Below, piece by piece: positions 3,729-14,103 of a DNA stretch of 64,000 bases. The notes beneath the pieces are model-generated. The model searched no databases. It had not been told where the DNA came from and worked only from the letters and a program-made list of their open reading frames with translations. Position 1 is the stretch's first letter. Every line of letters begins with the position of its first letter. Both the position numbers and the translations under genes were made by a program. The stretch is from positions 1 to 64,000 of the IMG/VR virus record IMGVR_UViG_3300017917_001112, one strand, 5' to 3'. Source of the stretch: a virus.

Positions 3729-6145
3729 TGTAGTTCTACCATTTCGTTGTGTAATCTTTCTGATGCTCCAGATAAACCTCTAAGTGTTCTTGCATTGTCT
3801 ACGTTTTTTTGATTATTATATACAGTAAATGGTTGATAACCACGTCCGTCTGGTATAAAAGTTTTTCCGTAAACATCAAATCCTGGAACAAATGACATTG
3901 CAGAGATAACTACAGTTTGCACTTGTTTTTGTTGCTCGAAGTTTTGAGCATTCGACATTTCTTTTTGTGCTTCTTTTCCTTTTGATATCTCTTGTTGTTT
4001 TGCTACTTCTGCTCTTCTTTCATTAATTTCCTGTCTTGCTGTTTTTTGACCTCCAGCATTTTGAGAATCTGATTTAGCAGGTGTGCTCTGCGCACTTTGA
4101 GTAGTGCCTCCGCTAGTAGTCCCATCTTGTTTTTTCTCCTCTTGTCTTTTATCTTCTTGTTTCTCTTGTTTTCTTTCTGCGGCAACAGCAACAGCAGTAG
4201 GTGCTGGACCAGTGTTGTTTTCACTATTTTGTTTAGATAATTGAACTGGAGCAGCTGGTTCTGCAGCAGAATTAACTATTGCACTTTCTTTAATTACTCT
4301 GTCAGCATTACTATCACCTGTTTTAGAAACACCTGCCTCTATCTTACCATCAGAAGCAACAGCAATAGTTGTTTCTGTAGTAGATCTTGTAAAAGAAGTT
4401 GGCGATGGATTAGAAGAATTAGAAGCAGTTGAACTAGATGAATTTGAATTGTATCCTGGACACATTTTATTGGATTGTGGATTAGAACCACAAGAAGCAA
4501 GTGTCGTTGTGTAATTTGGGCAATAAGAATATGTTAATTGATTACTAGAGCAAGCATTACTAGCAGTAGTATATCCTGAACAAAGAGTATTACTCAGAGG
4601 ATTTGTTGAGCATGTTGTTTGTGCTGTTGAATATCCTGGACAATATGAAGCATATAGTGCATTCGAACTACATTGTGTTGTAGCATTTTGATAACTTGGA
4701 CAGTAAGACGCATAAAGTGGATTTAATGCGCATTGAGTTGAAGCAGTATTATATCCTGGACAAGCAGAGTCATACAATGGATTCGCTGTGCATTGTTGAT
4801 TTAGATATGCTTGAGCATATCCTGGACACTGCGGTGCATATAGAGGATTTAAAGAACATTGTTGAGTTAAATAAGCAGCAGCATATCCTGGACAAGAAGG
4901 ATTGTATAATTGATTAAGTGTGCATTGTTGATTGAAATATGCAGCAGCATATCCTGGACATTGTGGATCAAACAAAGCATTAGATGAACACTGTTGGTTG
5001 AAATATGCTTGAGCATATCCAGCACAAGATGGTGATGATAGGGGATTCGTTAAACATGGATCTGCTGTGTAAACTGCATTGCTATACATGTTACTGATTG
5101 TAGCAGTACCACTTGTCCAAGGCGACATTGCGAATGCTCCAAGAGTTGACATTGGAACAGAAGAGTTTAATCTGTATTTTTTTGAATACGAACCAGATAC
5201 TCCGTTGTTTCCACCATTATGTGTATTTGATTCGCTGAATATTGTTGCATTGTTGGTATCAGTTATAACTGTAGCAACACCTGCATCTGAATACTGCCAA
5301 CCTGTTAAACAAATACCAAACAAATCAATAAAGCTGCAGTATCTACCAGCAACATTGTAATTATATCCATAATCAAACCCATGAATAGTAGCACCTGCGC
5401 CTGCTAAAGCCAGTGCTTGATTGATAGCATATGCTTGGGTTCCTGTAGTTCCAGGTAAAAGATTATTACTTATTTGTACTGTATTATATCCTGGACATGA
5501 TGGAGAGTATGCTGGATTACTAACACATGGGTCAACTGTATAGTTTAATTTAAAATATGGATCTTTGAATTGTGGTCCATAATAACCTGCCCAAAATCTA
5601 CTGTCTTTACCAGTAAAAGAAAGAGTGGCATCGCCTACGCTCGCCAAAGAATATGGATTAGCAAATGTTTGCGTTTGACTCCATTGTGTCCATCCAGTAG
5701 TTGTTGCTGGTAAATTGTGAGAATATGATTGTAATACTGAACCATTATTACTTTTGATAGCTGCTGTAACTGATAGTGTTCCATCATAAGGATTTTGATT
5801 CATGTAAGTAGCACCATATTCCATGCCACCAATTTGAATTCCAGAACCAGATAGTGCTGAGTTAATTGCTAATGTATAACCGATAGTACCCTGAGTATAA
5901 CCAAACATAAACAATCCAGTTGATGCATTGTATCCAGGTTGATTACCACCAACAAAACCACCACCAGTTGAATTAGTAAGAGTAAATCCAGTCCAGTTAT
6001 ATTGTGTTCCTGCTGGAGCAGGATTAACTGTTGTTCCTGCTAAATTTGGAGTAGTTTGAACTTGTGCGTTAGAGTAAGAGAATGAGCAAAATAATAACAG
6101 GAATGCTCCAACCCACTTTGTTATCGAGTTCAAGATTCTGCTCAT
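3719..6145 (-). CDS. secreted Cys-rich repeat protein (808 aa)
   Basis: signal peptide; 11 repeats of C-x2-N-x6-C-[PAS]-[GSN]-Y; charged low-complexity C-terminus. Confidence 0.8.
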   Translation of the reverse strand: MSRILNSITKWVGAFLLLFCSFSYSNAQVQTTPNLAGTTVNPAPAGTQYNWTGFTLTNSTGGGFVGGNQPGYNASTGLFMFGYTQGTIGYTLAINSALSGSGIQIGGMEYGATYMNQNPYDGTLSVTAAIKSNNGSVLQSYSHNLPATTTGWTQWSQTQTFANPYSLASVGDATLSFTGKDSRFWAGYYGPQFKDPYFKLNYTVDPCVSNPAYSPSCPGYNTVQISNNLLPGTTGTQAYAINQALALAGAGATIHGFDYGYNYNVAGRYCSFIDLFGICLTGWQYSDAGVATVITDTNNATIFSESNTHNGGNNGVSGSYSKKYRLNSSVPMSTLGAFAMSPWTSGTATISNMYSNAVYTADPCLTNPLSSPSCAGYAQAYFNQQCSSNALFDPQCPGYAAAYFNQQCTLNQLYNPSCPGYAAAYLTQQCSLNPLYAPQCPGYAQAYLNQQCTANPLYDSACPGYNTASTQCALNPLYASYCPSYQNATTQCSSNALYASYCPGYSTAQTTCSTNPLSNTLCSGYTTASNACSSNQLTYSYCPNYTTTLASCGSNPQSNKMCPGYNSNSSSSTASNSSNPSPTSFTRSTTETTIAVASDGKIEAGVSKTGDSNADRVIKESAIVNSAAEPAAPVQLSKQNSENNTGPAPTAVAVAAERKQEKQEDKRQEEKKQDGTTSGGTTQSAQSTPAKSDSQNAGGQKTARQEINERRAEVAKQQEISKGKEAQKEMSNAQNFEQQKQVQTVVISAMSFVPGFDVYGKTFIPDGRGYQPFTVYNNQKNVDNARTLRGLSGASERLHNEMVELQWK

Positions 6146-8022: not shown

Positions 8023-8051
8023 TTGACAATTTTTAATGTTTAGTGTATAAT
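8023..8051 (+). promoter_or_regulatory. sigma70-type promoter inside the tRNA array
   Basis: TTGACA-17bp-TATAAT. Confidence 0.85.
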
Positions 8052-8410: not shown

Positions 8411-8466
8411 AGGATTCTTTCAGCAATTTAAAAACTTTCACTGTTAATGAAAAGAAAGCGAATCCT
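8411..8466 (+). ncRNA. CAGCAA-stem RNA 1 (Y-RNA-like; cargo is an Asn-type anticodon stem-loop)
   Basis: AGGATTC..TTCAGCAA...GAATCCT-GTT enclosing TTTCA-CTGTTAA-TGAAA. Confidence 0.75.
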
Positions 8467-8477
8467 GTTGTTTTATT

Positions 8478-8726: not shown

Positions 8727-8843
8727 AGGATACTTACAGCAAATAAAAACTGCTCTTGAAAAGCAGAGGTTGTTGGTTCGAGTCCAACATTGTGTCTGAT
8801 GGCACGATTAGATCAATTGGTAGATCGCTAGAAAAAGTATCCT
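8727..8843 (+). ncRNA. CAGCAA-stem RNA 2 (YrlA-like circularly permuted tRNA cargo, TGA anticodon loop)
   Basis: AGGATACTT/AAGTATCCT closing stem; order is anticodon arm, variable, T-arm, loop-closed acceptor stem, D-arm. Confidence 0.85.
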
Positions 8844-8853
8844 GTTGTTTTTT

Positions 8854-8930
8854 GCCCCGATGACGGAATTGGTATACGTGCTTGCCTTAGAAGCAAGATT
8901 CTGAGAGTTCGAGTCTCTCTTGGGGCACCA
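8854..8930 (+). tRNA. tRNA-Leu(TAG), short variable loop
   Basis: CTTGC-CTTAGAA-GCAAG; ACCA. Confidence 0.92.
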
Positions 8931-8935
8931 TCTAT

Positions 8936-9025
8936 GGAGAGTTGGCAGAGTCTGGTTTATTGCACCTGTCTTGAAAACAGACGGATAGAAATGTCCCGTG
9001 AGTTCGAATCTCACACTCTCCGCCA
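8936..9025 (+). tRNA. tRNA-Ser(TGA)
   Basis: loop CTTGAAA; long variable arm; GCCA. Confidence 0.95.
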
Positions 9026-9110: not shown

Positions 9111-9210
9111 AGAATCGGTTCAGCAAAACATTTAACGTAGCTCATCGGTAGAGCAATTGCCTGCAACGCAATCAGAGTGGGTTCGATTCCCATCGATAAA
9201 AAACGATTCT
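9111..9210 (+). ncRNA. CAGCAA-stem RNA 3 (acceptor-less tRNA body, GCA anticodon)
   Basis: AGAATCG/CGATTCT closing stem; D-arm TAGCTCATCGGTAGAGC, ATTGC-CTGCAAC-GCAAT, T-arm GTGGG-TTCGATT-CCCAT; no acceptor stem or CCA. Confidence 0.8.
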
Positions 9211-9220
9211 GTTGATTAAT

Positions 9221-10123: not shown

Positions 10124-10708
10124 ATGCCTAGTGTGTTTTTAGTGAGCGACACGCACTTCGGACACGCAGGTGTTTGTAAATTTTTGCGTGAGGATGGAAG
10201 TAAACTTCGACCATGGGACAATTCAGAAGAAATGGACGAAGACATGGTTAAGAGATGGAACGAAACAGTAAAACCAACTGACAAAGTTTACCATCTAGGT
10301 GATGTTGTTATTAATCGCAAAGCATTAAACATTATGCGTAGATTAAATGGTGATAAAGTTTTGATTCGTGGCAACCATGACATCTTTAAAGATGAAGATT
10401 ATCGTCAACACTTTAGAGAACTTCGTGCATATCATGTGATGAACGGAATGATTCTTTCACACATACCTATTCACGCAGATAGTCTTGGTCGTTTCGGTGT
10501 CAACATTCACGGACATCTACATTCTGGTAGAGTTATGAGACAACCTGAAGGTAGATACGGAATTCCAATAATTGATGCAAGATATCATTGCGTTTGTGTT
10601 GAACAAACAGACTTTCGTCCGATTTTATTTGAAGATGTTATTCAAAGAATTAAAGACGAGGGTGGGGTTATTGGTTTTAGAAATGGTAATGGTCCCTGTA
10701 TAGATTAG
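10124..10708 (+). CDS. calcineurin-like metallophosphoesterase
   Basis: SDTHFGH, HLGDV, RGNHD, LSHIP, IHGHLH motifs. Confidence 0.92.
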   Translation: MPSVFLVSDTHFGHAGVCKFLREDGSKLRPWDNSEEMDEDMVKRWNETVKPTDKVYHLGDVVINRKALNIMRRLNGDKVLIRGNHDIFKDEDYRQHFRELRAYHVMNGMILSHIPIHADSLGRFGVNIHGHLHSGRVMRQPEGRYGIPIIDARYHCVCVEQTDFRPILFEDVIQRIKDEGGVIGFRNGNGPCID

Positions 10709-11777: not shown

Positions 11778-12266
11778 ATGAGATATAGAGAAAAAATCAA
11801 TATTCAAGAAGTCAGAGATTTCGTTGAACAATGTGATCCAACAACAAAGATTTACATTGGTTGTGACTCTGAGAGATATAAAGTTGGCAAACAATGGTAT
11901 GCTGACTATATTCTTGCTGTTGTTGTTCATATCAATGGTAACAATGGATGTAAAATTTTTGGTGCGGTTCAGAAAGAAATGGACTTTGATCAAAAATACA
12001 ATCGTCCACGTATGCGTTTAATGAATGAAGTGTACAAGGTTGCGGAACTTTACTTAGAGCTTGCTCAAGAAATTCCGAATGATATCGAAGTTCACTTAGA
12101 CATTAATCCGAATGAAAACTATGGTTCTTCATGTGTAATAAACGAAGCAGTTGGTTACATTCGTGGAATGTGTAATGTTGTACCTTTGGTAAAACCGAAC
12201 GCATTCGCAGCATCTTATGCTGCAGATCGAATGAAACATGTTGTTGATTTTAGAAAAAGTGCTTGA
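11778..12266 (+). CDS. RNase H-like YkuK (DUF458) family protein
   Basis: IYIGCDS...RLMNEV...IEVHLDIN...KPNAFAASYAAD. Confidence 0.8.
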   Translation: MRYREKINIQEVRDFVEQCDPTTKIYIGCDSERYKVGKQWYADYILAVVVHINGNNGCKIFGAVQKEMDFDQKYNRPRMRLMNEVYKVAELYLELAQEIPNDIEVHLDINPNENYGSSCVINEAVGYIRGMCNVVPLVKPNAFAASYAADRMKHVVDFRKSA

Positions 12267-12291
12267 CATTTAAACATGTATCAAGTATAAT
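12263..12291 (+). promoter_or_regulatory. sigma70-type promoter for RNAs 4-5 and the Ro60-like gene
   Basis: TTGACA-17bp-TATAAT. Confidence 0.85.
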
Positions 12292-12311: not shown

Positions 12312-12529
12312 AGGATGGGTGCAGCAAGTATAAATTACTTAATGCCGAATGCCAGACAGAGGAGGACCACCGAAAGGTGTATTTTAAAACTGGCTAGACA
12401 GAAAAGTTGAAGTAAATCTGACGCTGGAAAGACAGCAAGATGATAGTATCCTATCAGTTTTCAGTGGGGCTGTCCGAAAGGAGACACTGGGGTTAGAATA
12501 AACCAAGTTAACATCAACCCAACCATCCT
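12312..12529 (+). ncRNA. CAGCAA-stem RNA 4 (218 nt, multi-hairpin cargo)
   Basis: AGGATGG..TGCAGCAA...CCATCCT-GTT; inner hairpins include CACC-GAAA-GGTG, GCTG-GAAAGA-CAGC, TGATAG/CTATCA, CAGTG/CACTG. Confidence 0.75.
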
Positions 12530-12553
12530 GTTATTTTTTGTTATAGGAGTTTT

Positions 12554-12668
12554 AGAATAGGTTCAGCAACCAAAATTACTAACAGCGAAAGCTGTATCAA
12601 GGGGTCGGGTTCGCCTGACGACCTGAGTTTCGAGTTCTCAGGTAAAACAAAAAGTAGAAAACTATTCT
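12554..12668 (+). ncRNA. CAGCAA-stem RNA 5 (three-hairpin cargo)
   Basis: AGAATAG..TTCAGCAA...CTATTCT-GTT; ACAGC-GAAA-GCTGT, GTCGGG-TTCG-CCTGAC, ACCTGAG/CTCAGGT. Confidence 0.75.
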
Positions 12669-12684
12669 GTTAAATGAGGTAATT

Positions 12685-14103
12685 ATGAACACTTTTGTTT
12701 CTGCCGTACAAAATCAATCTGCACGCACAACTAACGGCATGCGTGCCCGTAAATCTACTGCGTCTGCTTGCGTAGACTTGTTCTTCAAGATCGGCGCATC
12801 TCGTGGTAAAGATATCACGAAAGACTTCGTTGCTGCTTATGTTGAGAATCGCGAAGTAGCATTGCGTATTGCGCAGTGGGTTCGTGACGCACGTGGTGGC
12901 GCAGGTGAACGTGACTTGTTCCGTCAAATCCTGAAGTATCTTGACAAGCATCAACCTGAAGATGCTGCTCTTCTGTTGAACAAAGTTCCAGAGATCGGTC
13001 GTTGGGATGACATCTTTGTCGTAGAGAAAAACAAGCCAAAAGCATTTACTATGCTGGGTGATGCTCTGCGTGAACGTAATGGTCTTGCTGCTAAGTGGAC
13101 TCCACGTCAAGGTAAGTTGGCTGTTGAAATCCGTAACTTCTTTGGTATGTCTCCAAAGTTTTACCGTAAGTCTTTGGTCGAACTGACTAAAGTTGTTGAA
13201 ACTCAGATGTGCGCAAAAGACTGGGATAACATCAACTTCAGCCATGTGCCTTCTGTTGCGTCTGCACGCTACAAGAAAGCATTTTACCGTAACACTCAAG
13301 AGTACGCAAAGTACGTTGCGGAATTGGTGAAAGATCCAAAAGACCGCACTATGGATGTGAAGGTAAACGCTGGTGCAGTATATCCATACGATGTACTGAA
13401 GGGTGTTGTTGGTCACTATGTGACTAACTTCAACAAGACAGAACTTGACCTTGTTGAAAAACAATGGGAAGCACTCGAAAACTTTGTTGGTGACGCAAAC
13501 GTGTTGCCACTGGTTGACGTGTCTGGTTCTATGTCTGTGCCTGTTGGTAAGAACGCAAACCTTTCTTGCCTTACTGTTGCTGTATCTCTGGGTCTATACC
13601 TAGCAGATAAAAACACAGGTAAGTTCAAGGACACGTTCTTGACTTTCTCTGGCTCACCAGAGTTGCTGCATCTGAAAGGTACAATCCTGCAGAAAGTGCA
13701 ACAAATGGTTAAGTCTAACTGGGATATGAACACTAACTTGGTGAAGGCGATGGATAAAATCCTGAAGACTGCCAAGGACGGTAACGTGCCTCAGGAAGAA
13801 ATGCCAGAAATGCTTCTGATTCTGTCAGACATGCAGTTCGATCAATGCGCAAAGTTTGACGACTCTGCGATGAAAATGATTGAACGTAAGTTCAACGAAG
13901 CTGGTTACGATCTGCCAAAGATCGTGTTCTGGAATCTGAATGCGCATGACAATGTGCCTGTGAAGTATGACACACGTGGGGTTGCTTTGGTTTCTGGATT
14001 CAGCCCAGCAATCATGAAAGCAGTTCTTGCTGGTGATACTGAACAGTTTACACCAGAAGCAATTATGCTGAAGGCAGTTATGGTGGATCGTTACGCCATC
14101 TAA
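12685..14103 (+). CDS. Ro60/TROVE-like RNA-binding protein with C-terminal vWA domain (DUF2828-type)
   Basis: RDARGGAGER, GRWDD, AAKWTPR, VPSVA, YPYD; MIDAS DVSGSM; LSDMQFD; IVFWNL; VSGFSP. Confidence 0.85.
   Translation: MNTFVSAVQNQSARTTNGMRARKSTASACVDLFFKIGASRGKDITKDFVAAYVENREVALRIAQWVRDARGGAGERDLFRQILKYLDKHQPEDAALLLNKVPEIGRWDDIFVVEKNKPKAFTMLGDALRERNGLAAKWTPRQGKLAVEIRNFFGMSPKFYRKSLVELTKVVETQMCAKDWDNINFSHVPSVASARYKKAFYRNTQEYAKYVAELVKDPKDRTMDVKVNAGAVYPYDVLKGVVGHYVTNFNKTELDLVEKQWEALENFVGDANVLPLVDVSGSMSVPVGKNANLSCLTVAVSLGLYLADKNTGKFKDTFLTFSGSPELLHLKGTILQKVQQMVKSNWDMNTNLVKAMDKILKTAKDGNVPQEEMPEMLLILSDMQFDQCAKFDDSAMKMIERKFNEAGYDLPKIVFWNLNAHDNVPVKYDTRGVALVSGFSPAIMKAVLAGDTEQFTPEAIMLKAVMVDRYAI

What the first reader, a model, noticed from the sequence alone, without database searches (positions are those of the whole stretch)
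8727..8843. Circularly permuted tRNA inside a CAGCAA stem (YrlA-like but retaining an anticodon arm)
Seen, 5' to 3': anticodon arm CTGCT-CTTGAAA-AGCAG (8750-8766), variable AGGTT, T-arm GTTGG-TTCGAGT-CCAAC, acceptor helix ATTGTGTC/GGCACGAT sealed by a TGAT loop (8789-8808), then TA and D-arm GATC-AATTGGTA-GATC. This is a whole tRNA opened between the D and anticodon arms, with no chargeable end. Known: YrlA RNAs have the permuted T/closed-acceptor/D order but lack an anticodon arm. The loop CTTGAAA equals that of tRNA-Ser(TGA) at 8936. Inference: an unchargeable tRNA mimic, possibly a decoy for tRNA-targeting toxins.
Basis: partly seen in the sequence, partly recalled or inferred. Interest (0 to 1): 0.85.

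Follow-up and report, generated by a model that had tools for sequence, protein, structure and literature searches.

The report
Permuted tRNA mimic on Ro-partner RNA
A lake phage encodes a complete tRNA shape whose chargeable end is sealed, mounted on a conserved RNA "handle" that travels with a Ro60-like phage protein gene. It is most likely a bait-carrying partner RNA of that protein, and this kind is not yet described in papers or in Rfam.

Summary
Bases 8727-8846 fold into a 9-bp closing stem around a whole tRNA body: anticodon arm, 5-nt variable loop, T arm, an acceptor helix sealed by a UGAU loop, and D arm. The backbone is opened between positions 26 and 27.

- **Covariation:** 29 relatives, including E. 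coli phage wV8 and mycobacteriophage Faith1, keep 94.7% of pair cells. 24 of 29 pairs show compensatory changes, and the 15:48 tertiary pair also covaries.
- **tRNA likeness:** re-permuted in silico, 12 of 13 are called full tRNAs. None is called in native order.
- **Not chargeable as encoded:** it has no CCA, while all 27 real tRNAs of the array encode one. It carries a Ser anticodon on a body without the long arm of bacterial tRNA-Ser.
- **Family:** it is one of five window RNAs, and one of 239 distinct RNAs in 80 related phage loci, that share a G-closed stem, CAGCAA and a 3' CUGU. This handle tracks a DUF2828/DUF7788 gene (12685-14103) whose model matches Ro60 best.
- **Reading:** a Y-RNA-like partner displaying a tRNA bait. 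It works like YrlA but fails YrlA membership (31 vs 69 bits, different handle, intact anticodon arm).

The decoy role is untested. This scan has met the handle family before in at least 10 other genomes; I found it in no paper and not in Rfam.

The parts
8727..8735 (+). Handle, 5' strand of the closing stem (AGGAUACUU)
   Evidence: Pairs with 8835-8843 in the minimum-energy fold. Six of the eight stem pairs covary in 29 relatives, and the terminal G-C is invariant.
8737..8742 (+). Invariant CAGCAA motif of the handle
   Evidence: Invariant in the E2-type alignment. Shared by all five window elements and by the handle RNAs of 80 related loci.
8743..8749 (+). A-rich 5' tether between handle and tRNA body
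   Evidence: Unpaired in the fold. A/C-rich in relatives.
8750..8766 (+). Anticodon arm mimic: 5-bp stem and 7-nt loop CUUGAAA (anticodon UGA)
   Evidence: All 5 pairs have compensatory changes. Loop positions 37 and 38 are A. The anticodon differs among relatives.
8767..8771 (+). 5-nt variable loop (AGGUU); its last base pairs with D-loop position 15
   Evidence: The 15:48 pair covaries: UA 8, AU 3, CG 1, other 1.
8772..8788 (+). T arm, GUUGG-UUCGAGU-CCAAC
   Evidence: 100% paired with 3 covarying pairs. The loop bases UUCGA are invariant.
8789..8808 (+). Acceptor helix (8 bp) sealed by a UGAU loop; no CCA
   Evidence: 97.5-98.9% paired; all 7 modelled pairs covary in 29 relatives. Loops are 3-6 nt in most relatives, with long hairpin extensions in a few.
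8809..8826 (+). U8 and A9 equivalents plus D arm, GAUC-AAUUGGUA-GAUC
   Evidence: The U8, A14, G18, G19 and A21 equivalents are invariant. The stem covaries.
8827..8834 (+). 3' tether (position 26 equivalent and an A-rich linker)
   Evidence: Mostly unpaired in the fold. A-rich in relatives.
8835..8846 (+). Handle, 3' strand of the closing stem plus the conserved tail (stem ends ..CCU, then GUU)
   Evidence: C-U-G-U-U is invariant in the 13-sequence alignment. The same tail is found in 80 loci.
8411..8469 (+). Sister RNA E1: same handle, cargo is a bare anticodon-like hairpin (loop CUGUUAA)
   Evidence: Dicty_Class_I_RNA model scores 33.4 bits.
9111..9213 (+). Sister RNA E3: same handle, cargo is a tRNA-like body in normal order with a weak acceptor and no CCA (ARAGORN 'tRNA-Cys')
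12312..12532 (+). Sister RNA E4: same handle with a cargo of about 190 nt, first in the DUF2828 operon
   Evidence: Consensus promoter at 12263-12291.
12554..12671 (+). Sister RNA E5: same handle, directly upstream of the DUF2828 gene
12685..14103 (+). Gene for the Ro60-like protein (DUF2828 + DUF7788), the proposed partner of the handle
   Evidence: Pfam: DUF7788 at 4e-49 and DUF2828 at 8e-23. The AlphaFold model's best PDB matches are full-length Ro60 structures, E 2e-9 to 3e-5.
8023..8051 (+). Sigma-70-type promoter (12 of 12 consensus positions), the likely driver of the tRNA/E1-E3 transcription unit
   Evidence: Consensus scan only.

Best explanation
The element is a small non-coding RNA of about 120 nt, made as part of the phage's tRNA precursor. 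It has two modules.

- **Handle.** A 9-bp stem closed by a terminal G-C pair, an unpaired CAGCAA on the 5' side and a 3' CUGU tail. I infer that it docks on the phage's Ro60-like DUF2828/DUF7788 protein, as Y RNAs dock on Ro60.
- **Cargo.** A complete L-shaped tRNA body tied to the handle by two A-rich tethers at the 26/27 hinge. Its acceptor end is sealed by a tetraloop and it lacks CCA, so as encoded it cannot be charged or used in translation.

The ribonucleoprotein would therefore present an authentic elbow and anticodon loop, here Ser-type UGA, to a tRNA-recognising factor. The most likely purpose is to bait, sequester or tether host enzymes or defence nucleases that act on tRNA anticodon loops.

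**Shown:** the fold, its conservation, the lack of a chargeable end, membership of the handle family, the handle-gene linkage and the Ro60-like fold.
**Inferred:** binding to the protein, release by tRNA-processing enzymes, and the bait role.
For: **Fold and tRNA likeness**
- Fold and covariation.
- The tertiary 15:48 pair covaries, and the U8, A14, G18, G19, A21, T54, Psi55, C56 and A58 equivalents are invariant.
- ARAGORN of 13 re-permuted sequences as 70-73-nt tRNAs (11 with a standard three-base anticodon) and 0 of 13 in native order.

**Not chargeable as encoded**
- There is no CCA, while 27 of 27 true tRNAs here encode one.
- The body is constant and has a 5-nt variable loop, but the anticodon changes among relatives: UGA, UAA, UGU, UAU, UCU, GAA, UCA. 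That fits a display scaffold. A decoding tRNA with a Ser or Leu anticodon would need the long variable arm that bacterial tRNA-Ser and tRNA-Leu carry (established knowledge).

**Handle family**
- There are five copies in the window.
- A strict scan of the whole genome gives 7 hits against 0.15 expected. All 5 real ones lie within 4.3 kb upstream of the DUF2828 gene.
- 239 distinct handle RNAs occur in 80 loci fetched through the protein. 98 of them display a strict anticodon-like hairpin, against 8.3 expected.

**Linkage tested the other way**
- Loci were fetched by the 5' half of the handle alone. DUF2828 was present in 31 of 53 with a complete handle but in only 1 of 27 without one (Fisher p = 7e-7).

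**Position next to the gene**
- Permuted-tRNA RNAs lie directly upstream of the gene in L045, L058 and L074.
- In Faith1 one lies about 100 nt downstream of the 'Ro-like RNA binding protein' gene. In wV8 one lies in the tRNA array after the gene.

**Protein**
- Its model's best PDB matches are Ro60 structures over the full length.
- A preprint reports that the Ro60-like gp130 of the Felix-O1-type phage Bas63 counters the Ppl defence. Its authors suggest that nearby 'tRNA genes' may be its Y RNAs (10.1101/2024.10.10.617714).
Against: - No binding, expression or end-mapping data exist for this RNA.
- The protein model is only moderate (mean pLDDT 64, TM 0.5-0.56).
- The handle differs from the known Ro60-binding helix, so the docking mode cannot be carried over.
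- Bas63 gp130 alone protected T7, which has no handle RNAs, against Ppl. The protein therefore has at least one activity that does not need these RNAs.
- I did not check individually that gp130 is a DUF2828 protein. I infer it from the presence of the gene in all 251 Felix-O1-type records matched.
- E2 lies 3.8 kb from the gene, inside the tRNA array, so linkage in this genome is at the level of the region.
- The target of the bait is unknown.
Confidence: 0.68

Rival explanations
1. It is a free-standing decoy or competitor. The sealed tRNA mimic acts alone, soaking up an anticodon nuclease or a tRNA-modifying enzyme. The handle only stabilises the RNA ends or directs processing, and no Ro60-like partner is involved.
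For: - The anticodon loop is canonical and interchangeable on a constant body.
- Minimal family members display only an anticodon hairpin.
- The Ro60-like protein of Bas63 works without handle RNAs in T7.
- E2 lies in the tRNA array and not beside the gene.
Against: - The handle sequence (terminal G-C, CAGCAA, CUGU) is invariant across phages of cyanobacteria, enterobacteria and mycobacteria while everything else changes. That points to a conserved protein partner.
- The handle co-occurs with DUF2828 in both search directions.
Confidence: 0.15
2. It is the precursor of a working tRNA. RNase P and 3' trimming open the sealed loop and CCA is added, giving a two-piece tRNA held together by the handle. 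Alternatively the handle ends are ligated, as happens for the permuted tRNA genes of Cyanidioschyzon merolae.
For: - Permuted genes do yield functional RNAs, for example the two-piece tmRNA encoded in this same window.
- Position 1 of the acceptor is usually G.
- Related loci hold CCA-ending tRNAs with the same handle inserted as a closed hairpin at 26/27. The handle is therefore compatible with an open acceptor end.
Against: - There is no encoded CCA, although all 27 true tRNAs have one.
- Sealing loops are only 3-6 nt and are not conserved.
- A Ser (UGA) or Leu (UAA) anticodon sits on a body with a 5-nt variable loop, which lacks the long arm of bacterial tRNA-Ser and tRNA-Leu.
- The phage already encodes a normal tRNA-Ser(UGA) at 8936.
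- The same handle carries bare hairpins and cargoes unrelated to tRNA.
- The phage genome has no RtcB or Rnl2-type ligase. The Rnl1 search was uninformative.
Confidence: 0.08
3. It is a structural spacer, processing signal or terminator-like insulator inside the tRNA operon, or a decaying tRNA rearrangement without a function of its own.
For: - It sits between tRNA-Ala and tRNA-Leu, with 6-7 nt gaps on each side.
- The 3' flank is U-rich.
Against: - Compensatory changes occur in all five helices, and tertiary-contact bases are invariant across very distant phages. A spacer or a pseudogene would not preserve these.
- The terminator scan reports only partial hairpins inside the element.
Confidence: 0.04

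Closest known systems
YrlA-type bacterial and phage Y RNAs bound by Ro60/Rsr (Rfam RF02553; Chen et al. 2014, PMC4201824)
   Same: - Two-module design: a terminal stem that serves as a protein handle plus a tRNA-like domain.
- Same order of T arm, closed acceptor-like hairpin and D arm.
- Encoded near a Ro60-fold protein gene.
- Not chargeable as encoded.
   Different: - The handle sequence and layout differ: G-closed stem, CAGCAA and CUGU here, against the CGAA-containing bulged helix of Y RNAs.
- The tRNA body joins the handle at the 26/27 hinge through single-stranded tethers and keeps a complete anticodon arm. YrlA joins through the anticodon stem and has no anticodon loop.
- The partner protein is DUF2828/DUF7788 and is not a Pfam TROVE protein.
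- The RF02553 score is 31.2 bits against a threshold of 69.
Class I RNAs of Dictyostelia (Rfam RF01414; Kjellin et al. 2021, PMC7919456)
   Same: - A 6-bp terminal stem with an invariant 5' G paired to C.
- An adjacent unpaired motif ending in CAGCAA.
- A 3' CUGU tail and a variable interior.
- The window's minimal sister RNA E1 scores 33.4 bits and this element 20 bits.
   Different: - Class I RNAs are about 60 nt, eukaryotic, reported as unique to dictyostelids and bound by an RRM protein.
- No tRNA-like cargo is described for them.
- Both scores here are below the 41.5-bit threshold.
- I could not test whether dictyostelids have a DUF2828 protein.
Circularly permuted tRNA genes (Cyanidioschyzon merolae, some archaea) and permuted two-piece tmRNA genes
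   Same: The 3' part of the tRNA is encoded upstream of the 5' part, with a short linker between the acceptor strands. A permuted tmRNA gene lies in the same window.
   Different: - Those precursors mature into functional open-ended RNAs. In the tRNA case this goes through a bulge-helix-bulge splice and a circular intermediate (my own knowledge).
- Here there is no bulge-helix-bulge motif and no CCA.
- The flanks form a conserved protein-type handle that is shared with cargoes unrelated to tRNA.
Phage tRNAs that overcome tRNA-cleaving defences (for example T5 tRNAs against PARIS or retron effectors)
   Same: They are encoded in phage tRNA arrays, and the anticodon loop is the business end.
   Different: Those are working, chargeable tRNAs that replace cleaved host tRNAs (my own knowledge; only mentioned results). 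This RNA cannot be charged as encoded, so it would act by binding, not by decoding.

Membership tests
YrlA / Y RNA-like (Rfam RF02553) | Reaches the family's curated covariance-model score (69 bits) | tested here: not met
   31.2 bits over model positions 1-114 at 8740-8854. The Faith1 and wV8 relatives were not hit at E <= 0.05.
YrlA / Y RNA-like (Rfam RF02553) | tRNA-like domain with T arm, closed acceptor-like hairpin and D arm in that order | tested here: met
   Aligned to the model's T, acceptor and D helices. Covariation supports each helix.
YrlA / Y RNA-like (Rfam RF02553) | tRNA-like domain joined to the Ro60-binding stem through the anticodon-stem position, with no anticodon loop | tested here: not met
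   A closed 5-bp/7-nt anticodon arm is present. The ends leave between positions 26 and 27.
YrlA / Y RNA-like (Rfam RF02553) | Ro60-binding bulged helix with the conserved Y-RNA sequence (CGAA-type) | tested here: not met
   The handle is a G-closed stem with CAGCAA and a 3' CUGU. In the model alignment these positions do not match. The CGAA motif is as described in PMC12135203.
YrlA / Y RNA-like (Rfam RF02553) | Physical binding to a Ro60 ortholog | not testable with these tools
   Only genomic linkage to a Ro60-fold DUF2828 gene is shown.
tRNA (Rfam RF00005 / ARAGORN) | Cloverleaf in standard 5'-to-3' order, detected by tRNA finders | tested here: not met
   ARAGORN finds nothing at 8727-8846 or in native order in 13 relatives. 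RF00005 gives only a partial match of 25.1 bits, below the threshold of 29.
tRNA (Rfam RF00005 / ARAGORN) | All four arms plus conserved tertiary-contact bases | tested here: met
   After in-silico re-permutation, 12 of 13 are called as 70-73-nt tRNAs. The tertiary-contact equivalents are invariant and the 15:48 pair covaries.
tRNA (Rfam RF00005 / ARAGORN) | Free acceptor end with 3' CCA (encoded in this phage's tRNAs) | tested here: not met
   The acceptor is sealed by UGAU and there is no CCA. All 27 true tRNAs of the array encode CCA.
Dictyostelid Class I RNA (Rfam RF01414) | Reaches the curated score (41.5 bits) | tested here: not met
   20.0 bits for this element and 33.4 bits for sister RNA E1.
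Dictyostelid Class I RNA (Rfam RF01414) | 6-bp terminal stem with a 5' G, an adjacent motif ending in CAGCAA, and a 3' CUGU | tested here: met
   The sequence at 8728-8846 has GGAUAC-UUA-CAGCAA ... GUAUCC-UGUU. The family features are as described in PMC7919456.
Permuted tRNA genes (Cyanidioschyzon type) | 3' half upstream of the 5' half, with acceptor strands joined by a linker | tested here: met
Permuted tRNA genes (Cyanidioschyzon type) | Maturation to an open, CCA-ending functional tRNA through a spliced circular intermediate | not testable with these tools
   The indirect evidence points against it. The body type does not fit a Ser anticodon. The phage has no RtcB or Rnl2-type ligase. The flanks form the shared handle, not a bulge-helix-bulge motif.
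Ro60/TROVE proteins (for the partner gene 12685-14103) | HEAT-repeat ring plus vWA domain fold | tested here: met
   The top Foldseek matches are Ro60 structures (9kop, 9l5y, 2i91, 1yvp, 2nvo), E 2e-9 to 3e-5, over 500+ aligned columns and TM 0.36-0.56. The model's mean pLDDT is 64.
Ro60/TROVE proteins (for the partner gene 12685-14103) | Sequence membership (Pfam TROVE) | tested here: not met
   Pfam reports only DUF7788 and DUF2828. Sequence searches of the PDB give E = 0.22 to a phage TROVE protein for the single sequence and nothing with a profile.

The most novel reading that the evidence does not exclude
The handle and the DUF2828 ring may form a general 'tRNA-display' particle.

- One 3D object, a tRNA L-shape with the handle attached at the 26/27 hinge, is encoded in two circularly permuted ways. 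In one, as here, the acceptor is sealed and the handle is open. In the other, seen in CCA-ending Met/Asn/His/Tyr-type tRNAs of related phages, the acceptor is open and the handle is sealed.
- The particle would hold either baits or real tRNAs to defeat tRNA-directed host immunity.
- The orphan Class I RNAs of Dictyostelium would be eukaryotic members of the same handle family, with a DUF2828-type protein as their unidentified partner.
Probability: 0.22. Interest if true: 0.9.

Novelty: new variant of a known kind. Interest (0 to 1): 0.72.

Why it matters
- **A second branch of the Ro60/Y-RNA world.** It has its own protein family (DUF2828/DUF7788, present in 711 cultured phage records) and its own RNA handle. 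Its cargo is a full tRNA with a working-looking anticodon loop, more than the partial mimic seen in YrlA.
- **Interchangeable anticodons.** Because the anticodon varies on a constant scaffold, the system looks programmable. It may explain how some phages cope with tRNA-targeting defences without spending real tRNAs.
- **Tractable systems.** It occurs in Felix-O1-type coliphages and in mycobacteriophage Faith1. In wV8 the RNA is currently annotated as a protein gene. A Felix-O1-type homolog of the protein already has a reported anti-defence phenotype.
- **Annotation.** The result warns that 'tRNA' and 'hypothetical protein' calls in phage tRNA arrays can hide such RNAs.

Tried and rejected
- **Rfam.** At gathering thresholds only tRNAs and the tmRNA were found in the window. 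A permissive search gave sub-threshold YrlA and Class I hits only.
- **A wasted Rfam call.** I scanned 11 loci to see whether any small handle RNA passes the Class I threshold. The list was swamped by tRNAs and showed only the top 150 hits, so the question stays open.
- **Pseudoknot idea.** I considered CAGCA pairing with the UGUUG just 3' of the stem. The linker would be zero nucleotides long and the motif is invariant, so no covariation can support it. I dropped it (reasoning).
- **Ribozyme idea.** CUGAUG near the sealed loop briefly suggested a hammerhead-like ribozyme. No ribozyme family was hit, and the bases belong to the covarying acceptor helix.
- **Sequence searches of the PDB with the protein.** These were uninformative. 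Only the fold search worked.
- **Literature.** 'DUF2828' returns plant lists only. Searches on decoys, anticodon nucleases and Ro60 found no description of this RNA.
- **Dictyostelium.** The ESM Atlas call gave only viral DUF2828 clusters, so the Dictyostelium partner question did not complete. The 2011 paper listing Class I RNA-binding proteins is not in the library.
- **Bas63.** Guessing its accession failed: MZ501108 is Bas27.
- **Rnl1 search of the genome.** It was uninformative because the control genomes did not respond.

Full report
**Context.** The window is the first 64 kb of a complete 165,256-bp phage genome with direct terminal repeats. It holds a permuted tmRNA gene (407-737) and an array that ARAGORN reads as 28 tRNAs between 7524 and 11758. 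One of these calls, 'tRNA-Cys' at 9131-9201, turns out to be a handle RNA. The finding lies between tRNA-Ala (ends 8720) and tRNA-Leu (starts 8854).

**Observation.**
- AGGAUACUU (8727-8735) pairs with AAGUAUCCU (8835-8843).
- Inside the stem, in order: CAGCAA, an A-rich tether, a 5-bp/7-nt anticodon arm (loop CUUGAAA), a 5-nt variable loop, a canonical T arm, an 8-bp acceptor helix closed by UGAU, the U8 and A9 equivalents, a canonical D arm and a second tether.
- The minimum-energy fold gives exactly this structure (-35.7 kcal/mol, z = -3.8).

**Is it more than chance?** I fetched 80 viral contigs through the neighbouring DUF2828 protein and found permuted-tRNA elements of the same build in many of them.
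- An alignment of 13 has 95.4% of cells paired and 19 of 29 pairs with compensatory changes. Slid controls give 34-45%.
- A covariance model built from it finds 29 hits at E < 1e-6 (48-126 bits). They include one in mycobacteriophage Faith1 (54.9 bits) and one in E. coli phage wV8 (48.3 bits).
- On these 29, 94.7% of cells pair and 24 of 29 pairs are compensatory. This alignment is fitted to the model, so it leans toward the structure. The hand-made alignment gives the same picture.
- The bases that build the tRNA elbow and core are invariant: the U8, A14, G18, G19, A21, T54, Psi55, C56 and A58 equivalents.
- The tertiary 15:48 pair covaries: U-A 8, A-U 3, C-G 1, unpaired 1.
- When the two halves are swapped back in silico, ARAGORN of 13 as 70-73-nt tRNAs, 11 of them with a standard three-base anticodon. 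In native order it calls none.
- So the description 'a whole tRNA opened between the D and anticodon arms' is correct.

**Can it be charged?** Not as encoded.
- The acceptor is sealed and there is no CCA. All 27 genuine tRNAs of the array encode CCA, and the only other exception is sister RNA E3.
- Among relatives the body stays the same, with a 5-nt variable loop, while the anticodon changes: UGA, UAA, UGU, UAU, UCU, GAA, UCA.
- Bacterial tRNA-Ser and tRNA-Leu carry a long variable arm (established knowledge). A short-arm body with a Ser or Leu anticodon looks like a display scaffold and not like a decoder.
- The phage also has a normal tRNA-Ser(UGA) at 8936.

**The wider family.** The 'CAGCAA stem' is a shared handle.
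- Five window elements carry it: 8411-8469, 8727-8846, 9111-9213, 12312-12532 and 12554-12671. Their closing stems covary and their interiors are unrelated.
- A strict scan of the whole genome gives 7 hits against 0.15 expected. The 5 real ones all lie within 4.3 kb upstream of one gene.
- In the 80 related loci I count 239 distinct handle RNAs. 98 display a strict anticodon-like hairpin (5 bp, 7-nt loop with U33 and purine 37 equivalents), against 8.3 in shuffles. The commonest anticodons are UGU, UCU, UUU and UGA.
- Cargo types range from a bare anticodon hairpin, through permuted tRNA bodies with or without an anticodon arm and tRNA-like bodies in normal order, to RNAs of more than 200 nt.

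**The partner gene.**
- ORF 12685-14103 follows E4 and E5 behind a perfect sigma-70-type promoter. It is DUF7788 + DUF2828.
- Its AlphaFold model is moderate (mean pLDDT 64). Its best PDB matches, over the full length, are Ro60 structures: Thermus phage phiLo, Xenopus, human and Deinococcus, at E 2e-9 to 3e-5.
- The gene occurs in 711 cultured phage records, including Felix-O1-type, KVP40-like, Listeria P100-like, Campylobacter and mycobacterial phages.
- Handle RNAs, including permuted-tRNA ones, lie next to it in wV8, Faith1 and Synechococcus phage BUCT-ZZ01. In L045, L058 and L074 the permuted-tRNA RNA sits directly upstream of the gene.
- I also tested the link from the RNA side. Of 80 contigs fetched by the 5' half of the handle alone, 31 of 53 with a complete handle have DUF2828 in the fetched stretch. 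Only 1 of 27 chance-like matches does (p = 7e-7).

**How it most likely works.**
- By analogy with Ro60 and Y RNAs, the handle would bind the ring protein and the cargo would engage a second factor. In that system a terminal helix binds the ring and a second module recruits partners such as PNPase (Chen 2014; phiLo Ro60).
- The cargo here is a faithful tRNA that cannot be charged, so it suits a bait or tether for enzymes that read the tRNA elbow and anticodon loop.
- A preprint reports that the Ro60-like gp130 of the Felix-O1-type phage Bas63, which lies directly upstream of its tRNA genes, counters the Ppl defence. It works even when moved into T7, and the authors guess that some 'tRNA genes' may be its Y RNAs.
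- That fits an anti-defence role. It also shows that the protein has an activity independent of handle RNAs.
- Binding, processing by RNase P and 3' trimming enzymes, and the bait role are all inferences.

**Comparison with known families.**
- It works like YrlA but is not a member. It scores 31.2 bits against a threshold of 69, has a different handle, keeps an intact anticodon arm, attaches at the 26/27 hinge, and its partner is not a Pfam TROVE protein.
- The handle closely resembles the frame of Dictyostelium Class I RNAs: a 6-bp stem with a 5' G, a motif ending in CAGCAA and a 3' CUGU. Scores are below threshold (20 and 33.4 against 41.5 bits). This is a lead and not a membership.
- It shares gene order with permuted tRNA genes but lacks their maturation signals.

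**Prior notes of this scan.** Earlier reports on this genome and on at least 10 other genomes describe the same handle family and its Ro60-like gene. One of them pointed me to the Ppl preprint, which I then read. I re-tested the fold of the protein, the linkage and the Class I resemblance myself. I found the family in no paper and not in Rfam 15.

**A new observation.** Several related loci, and BUCT-ZZ01, encode CCA-ending tRNAs that carry the same handle as a closed hairpin inserted at position 26/27.
- The insert reads: 3' strand, UGUAAA-type loop, 5' strand, then C(A/U/C)GCAA.
- ARAGORN misses them intact. It calls Met, Asn, His or Tyr tRNAs of 74-76 nt once the 40-54-nt cassette is removed in silico.
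- They are the circular-permutation counterparts of the present element. Two such genes in tandem, as in BUCT-ZZ01, would yield the present architecture by loss of the outer ends (inference).

Noticed in passing
L083:5581-5693 and 5711-5824 (Synechococcus phage BUCT-ZZ01); L019:880-1007; L046:4646-4775; L061:5051-5180; L010:270-399: These are CCA-ending tRNA genes carrying the handle as a closed hairpin inserted at position 26/27, the inverse connectivity of the finding. ARAGORN misses them intact but calls Met, Asn, His or Tyr tRNAs after the 40-54-nt cassette is removed in silico.
   Followed up: partly
window:7597-7760: An unassigned structured stretch lies between tRNA-Glu and tRNA-Gly. 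It has a 15-bp long-range stem (UUUUGCUGAUUGUAA with its complement) followed by a small hairpin ending in ACCACCA. Fold z = -3.15, and there is no Rfam match at E <= 1.
   Followed up: partly
window:8077-8133: An 18-codon ORF rich in Lys and Arg (MKFMKRKRKMKCRKRFGG..) has a good ribosome-binding site. It lies just after the consensus promoter at 8023-8051 and runs into the start of tRNA-Lys (8124). It may be a leader peptide that senses Lys/Arg tRNA supply.
   Followed up: no
L082:4905-5032 (Escherichia phage wV8): The permuted-tRNA handle RNA of wV8 lies under an annotated minus-strand 'hypothetical protein' (gp048, locus 4871-5128), so that CDS call is probably wrong. Three further handle RNAs sit between annotated tRNAs at 4256-4319, 4422-4477 and 4818-4883.
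   Followed up: partly
L081:3970-4270 (Mycobacterium phage Faith1): Three handle RNAs lie directly downstream of the gene annotated 'Ro-like RNA binding protein'. Their 3' tail reads CAG instead of CUG. The middle one is a permuted tRNA with an Asn-type loop. Rfam YrlA does not detect them.
   Followed up: partly
window:11778-12266 and 10124-10708: An RNase H-like protein (PF04308) and a calcineurin-type metallophosphoesterase accompany the DUF2828 gene in 43 and 36 of the 80 related loci respectively. The genes downstream of DUF2828 are not conserved.
   Followed up: partly
window:407-737: A circularly permuted (two-piece) tmRNA gene with tag peptide ANDEVYALAA is encoded by the phage. BUCT-ZZ01 has a related one near its DUF2828 gene.
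   Followed up: no
window:8412-8467 and 8728-8844: The Rfam model for Dictyostelium Class I RNA aligns end to end with the phage handle RNAs (33.4 and 20.0 bits; threshold 41.5). It matches the stem, the CAGCAA motif and the 3' CUG.
   Followed up: partly
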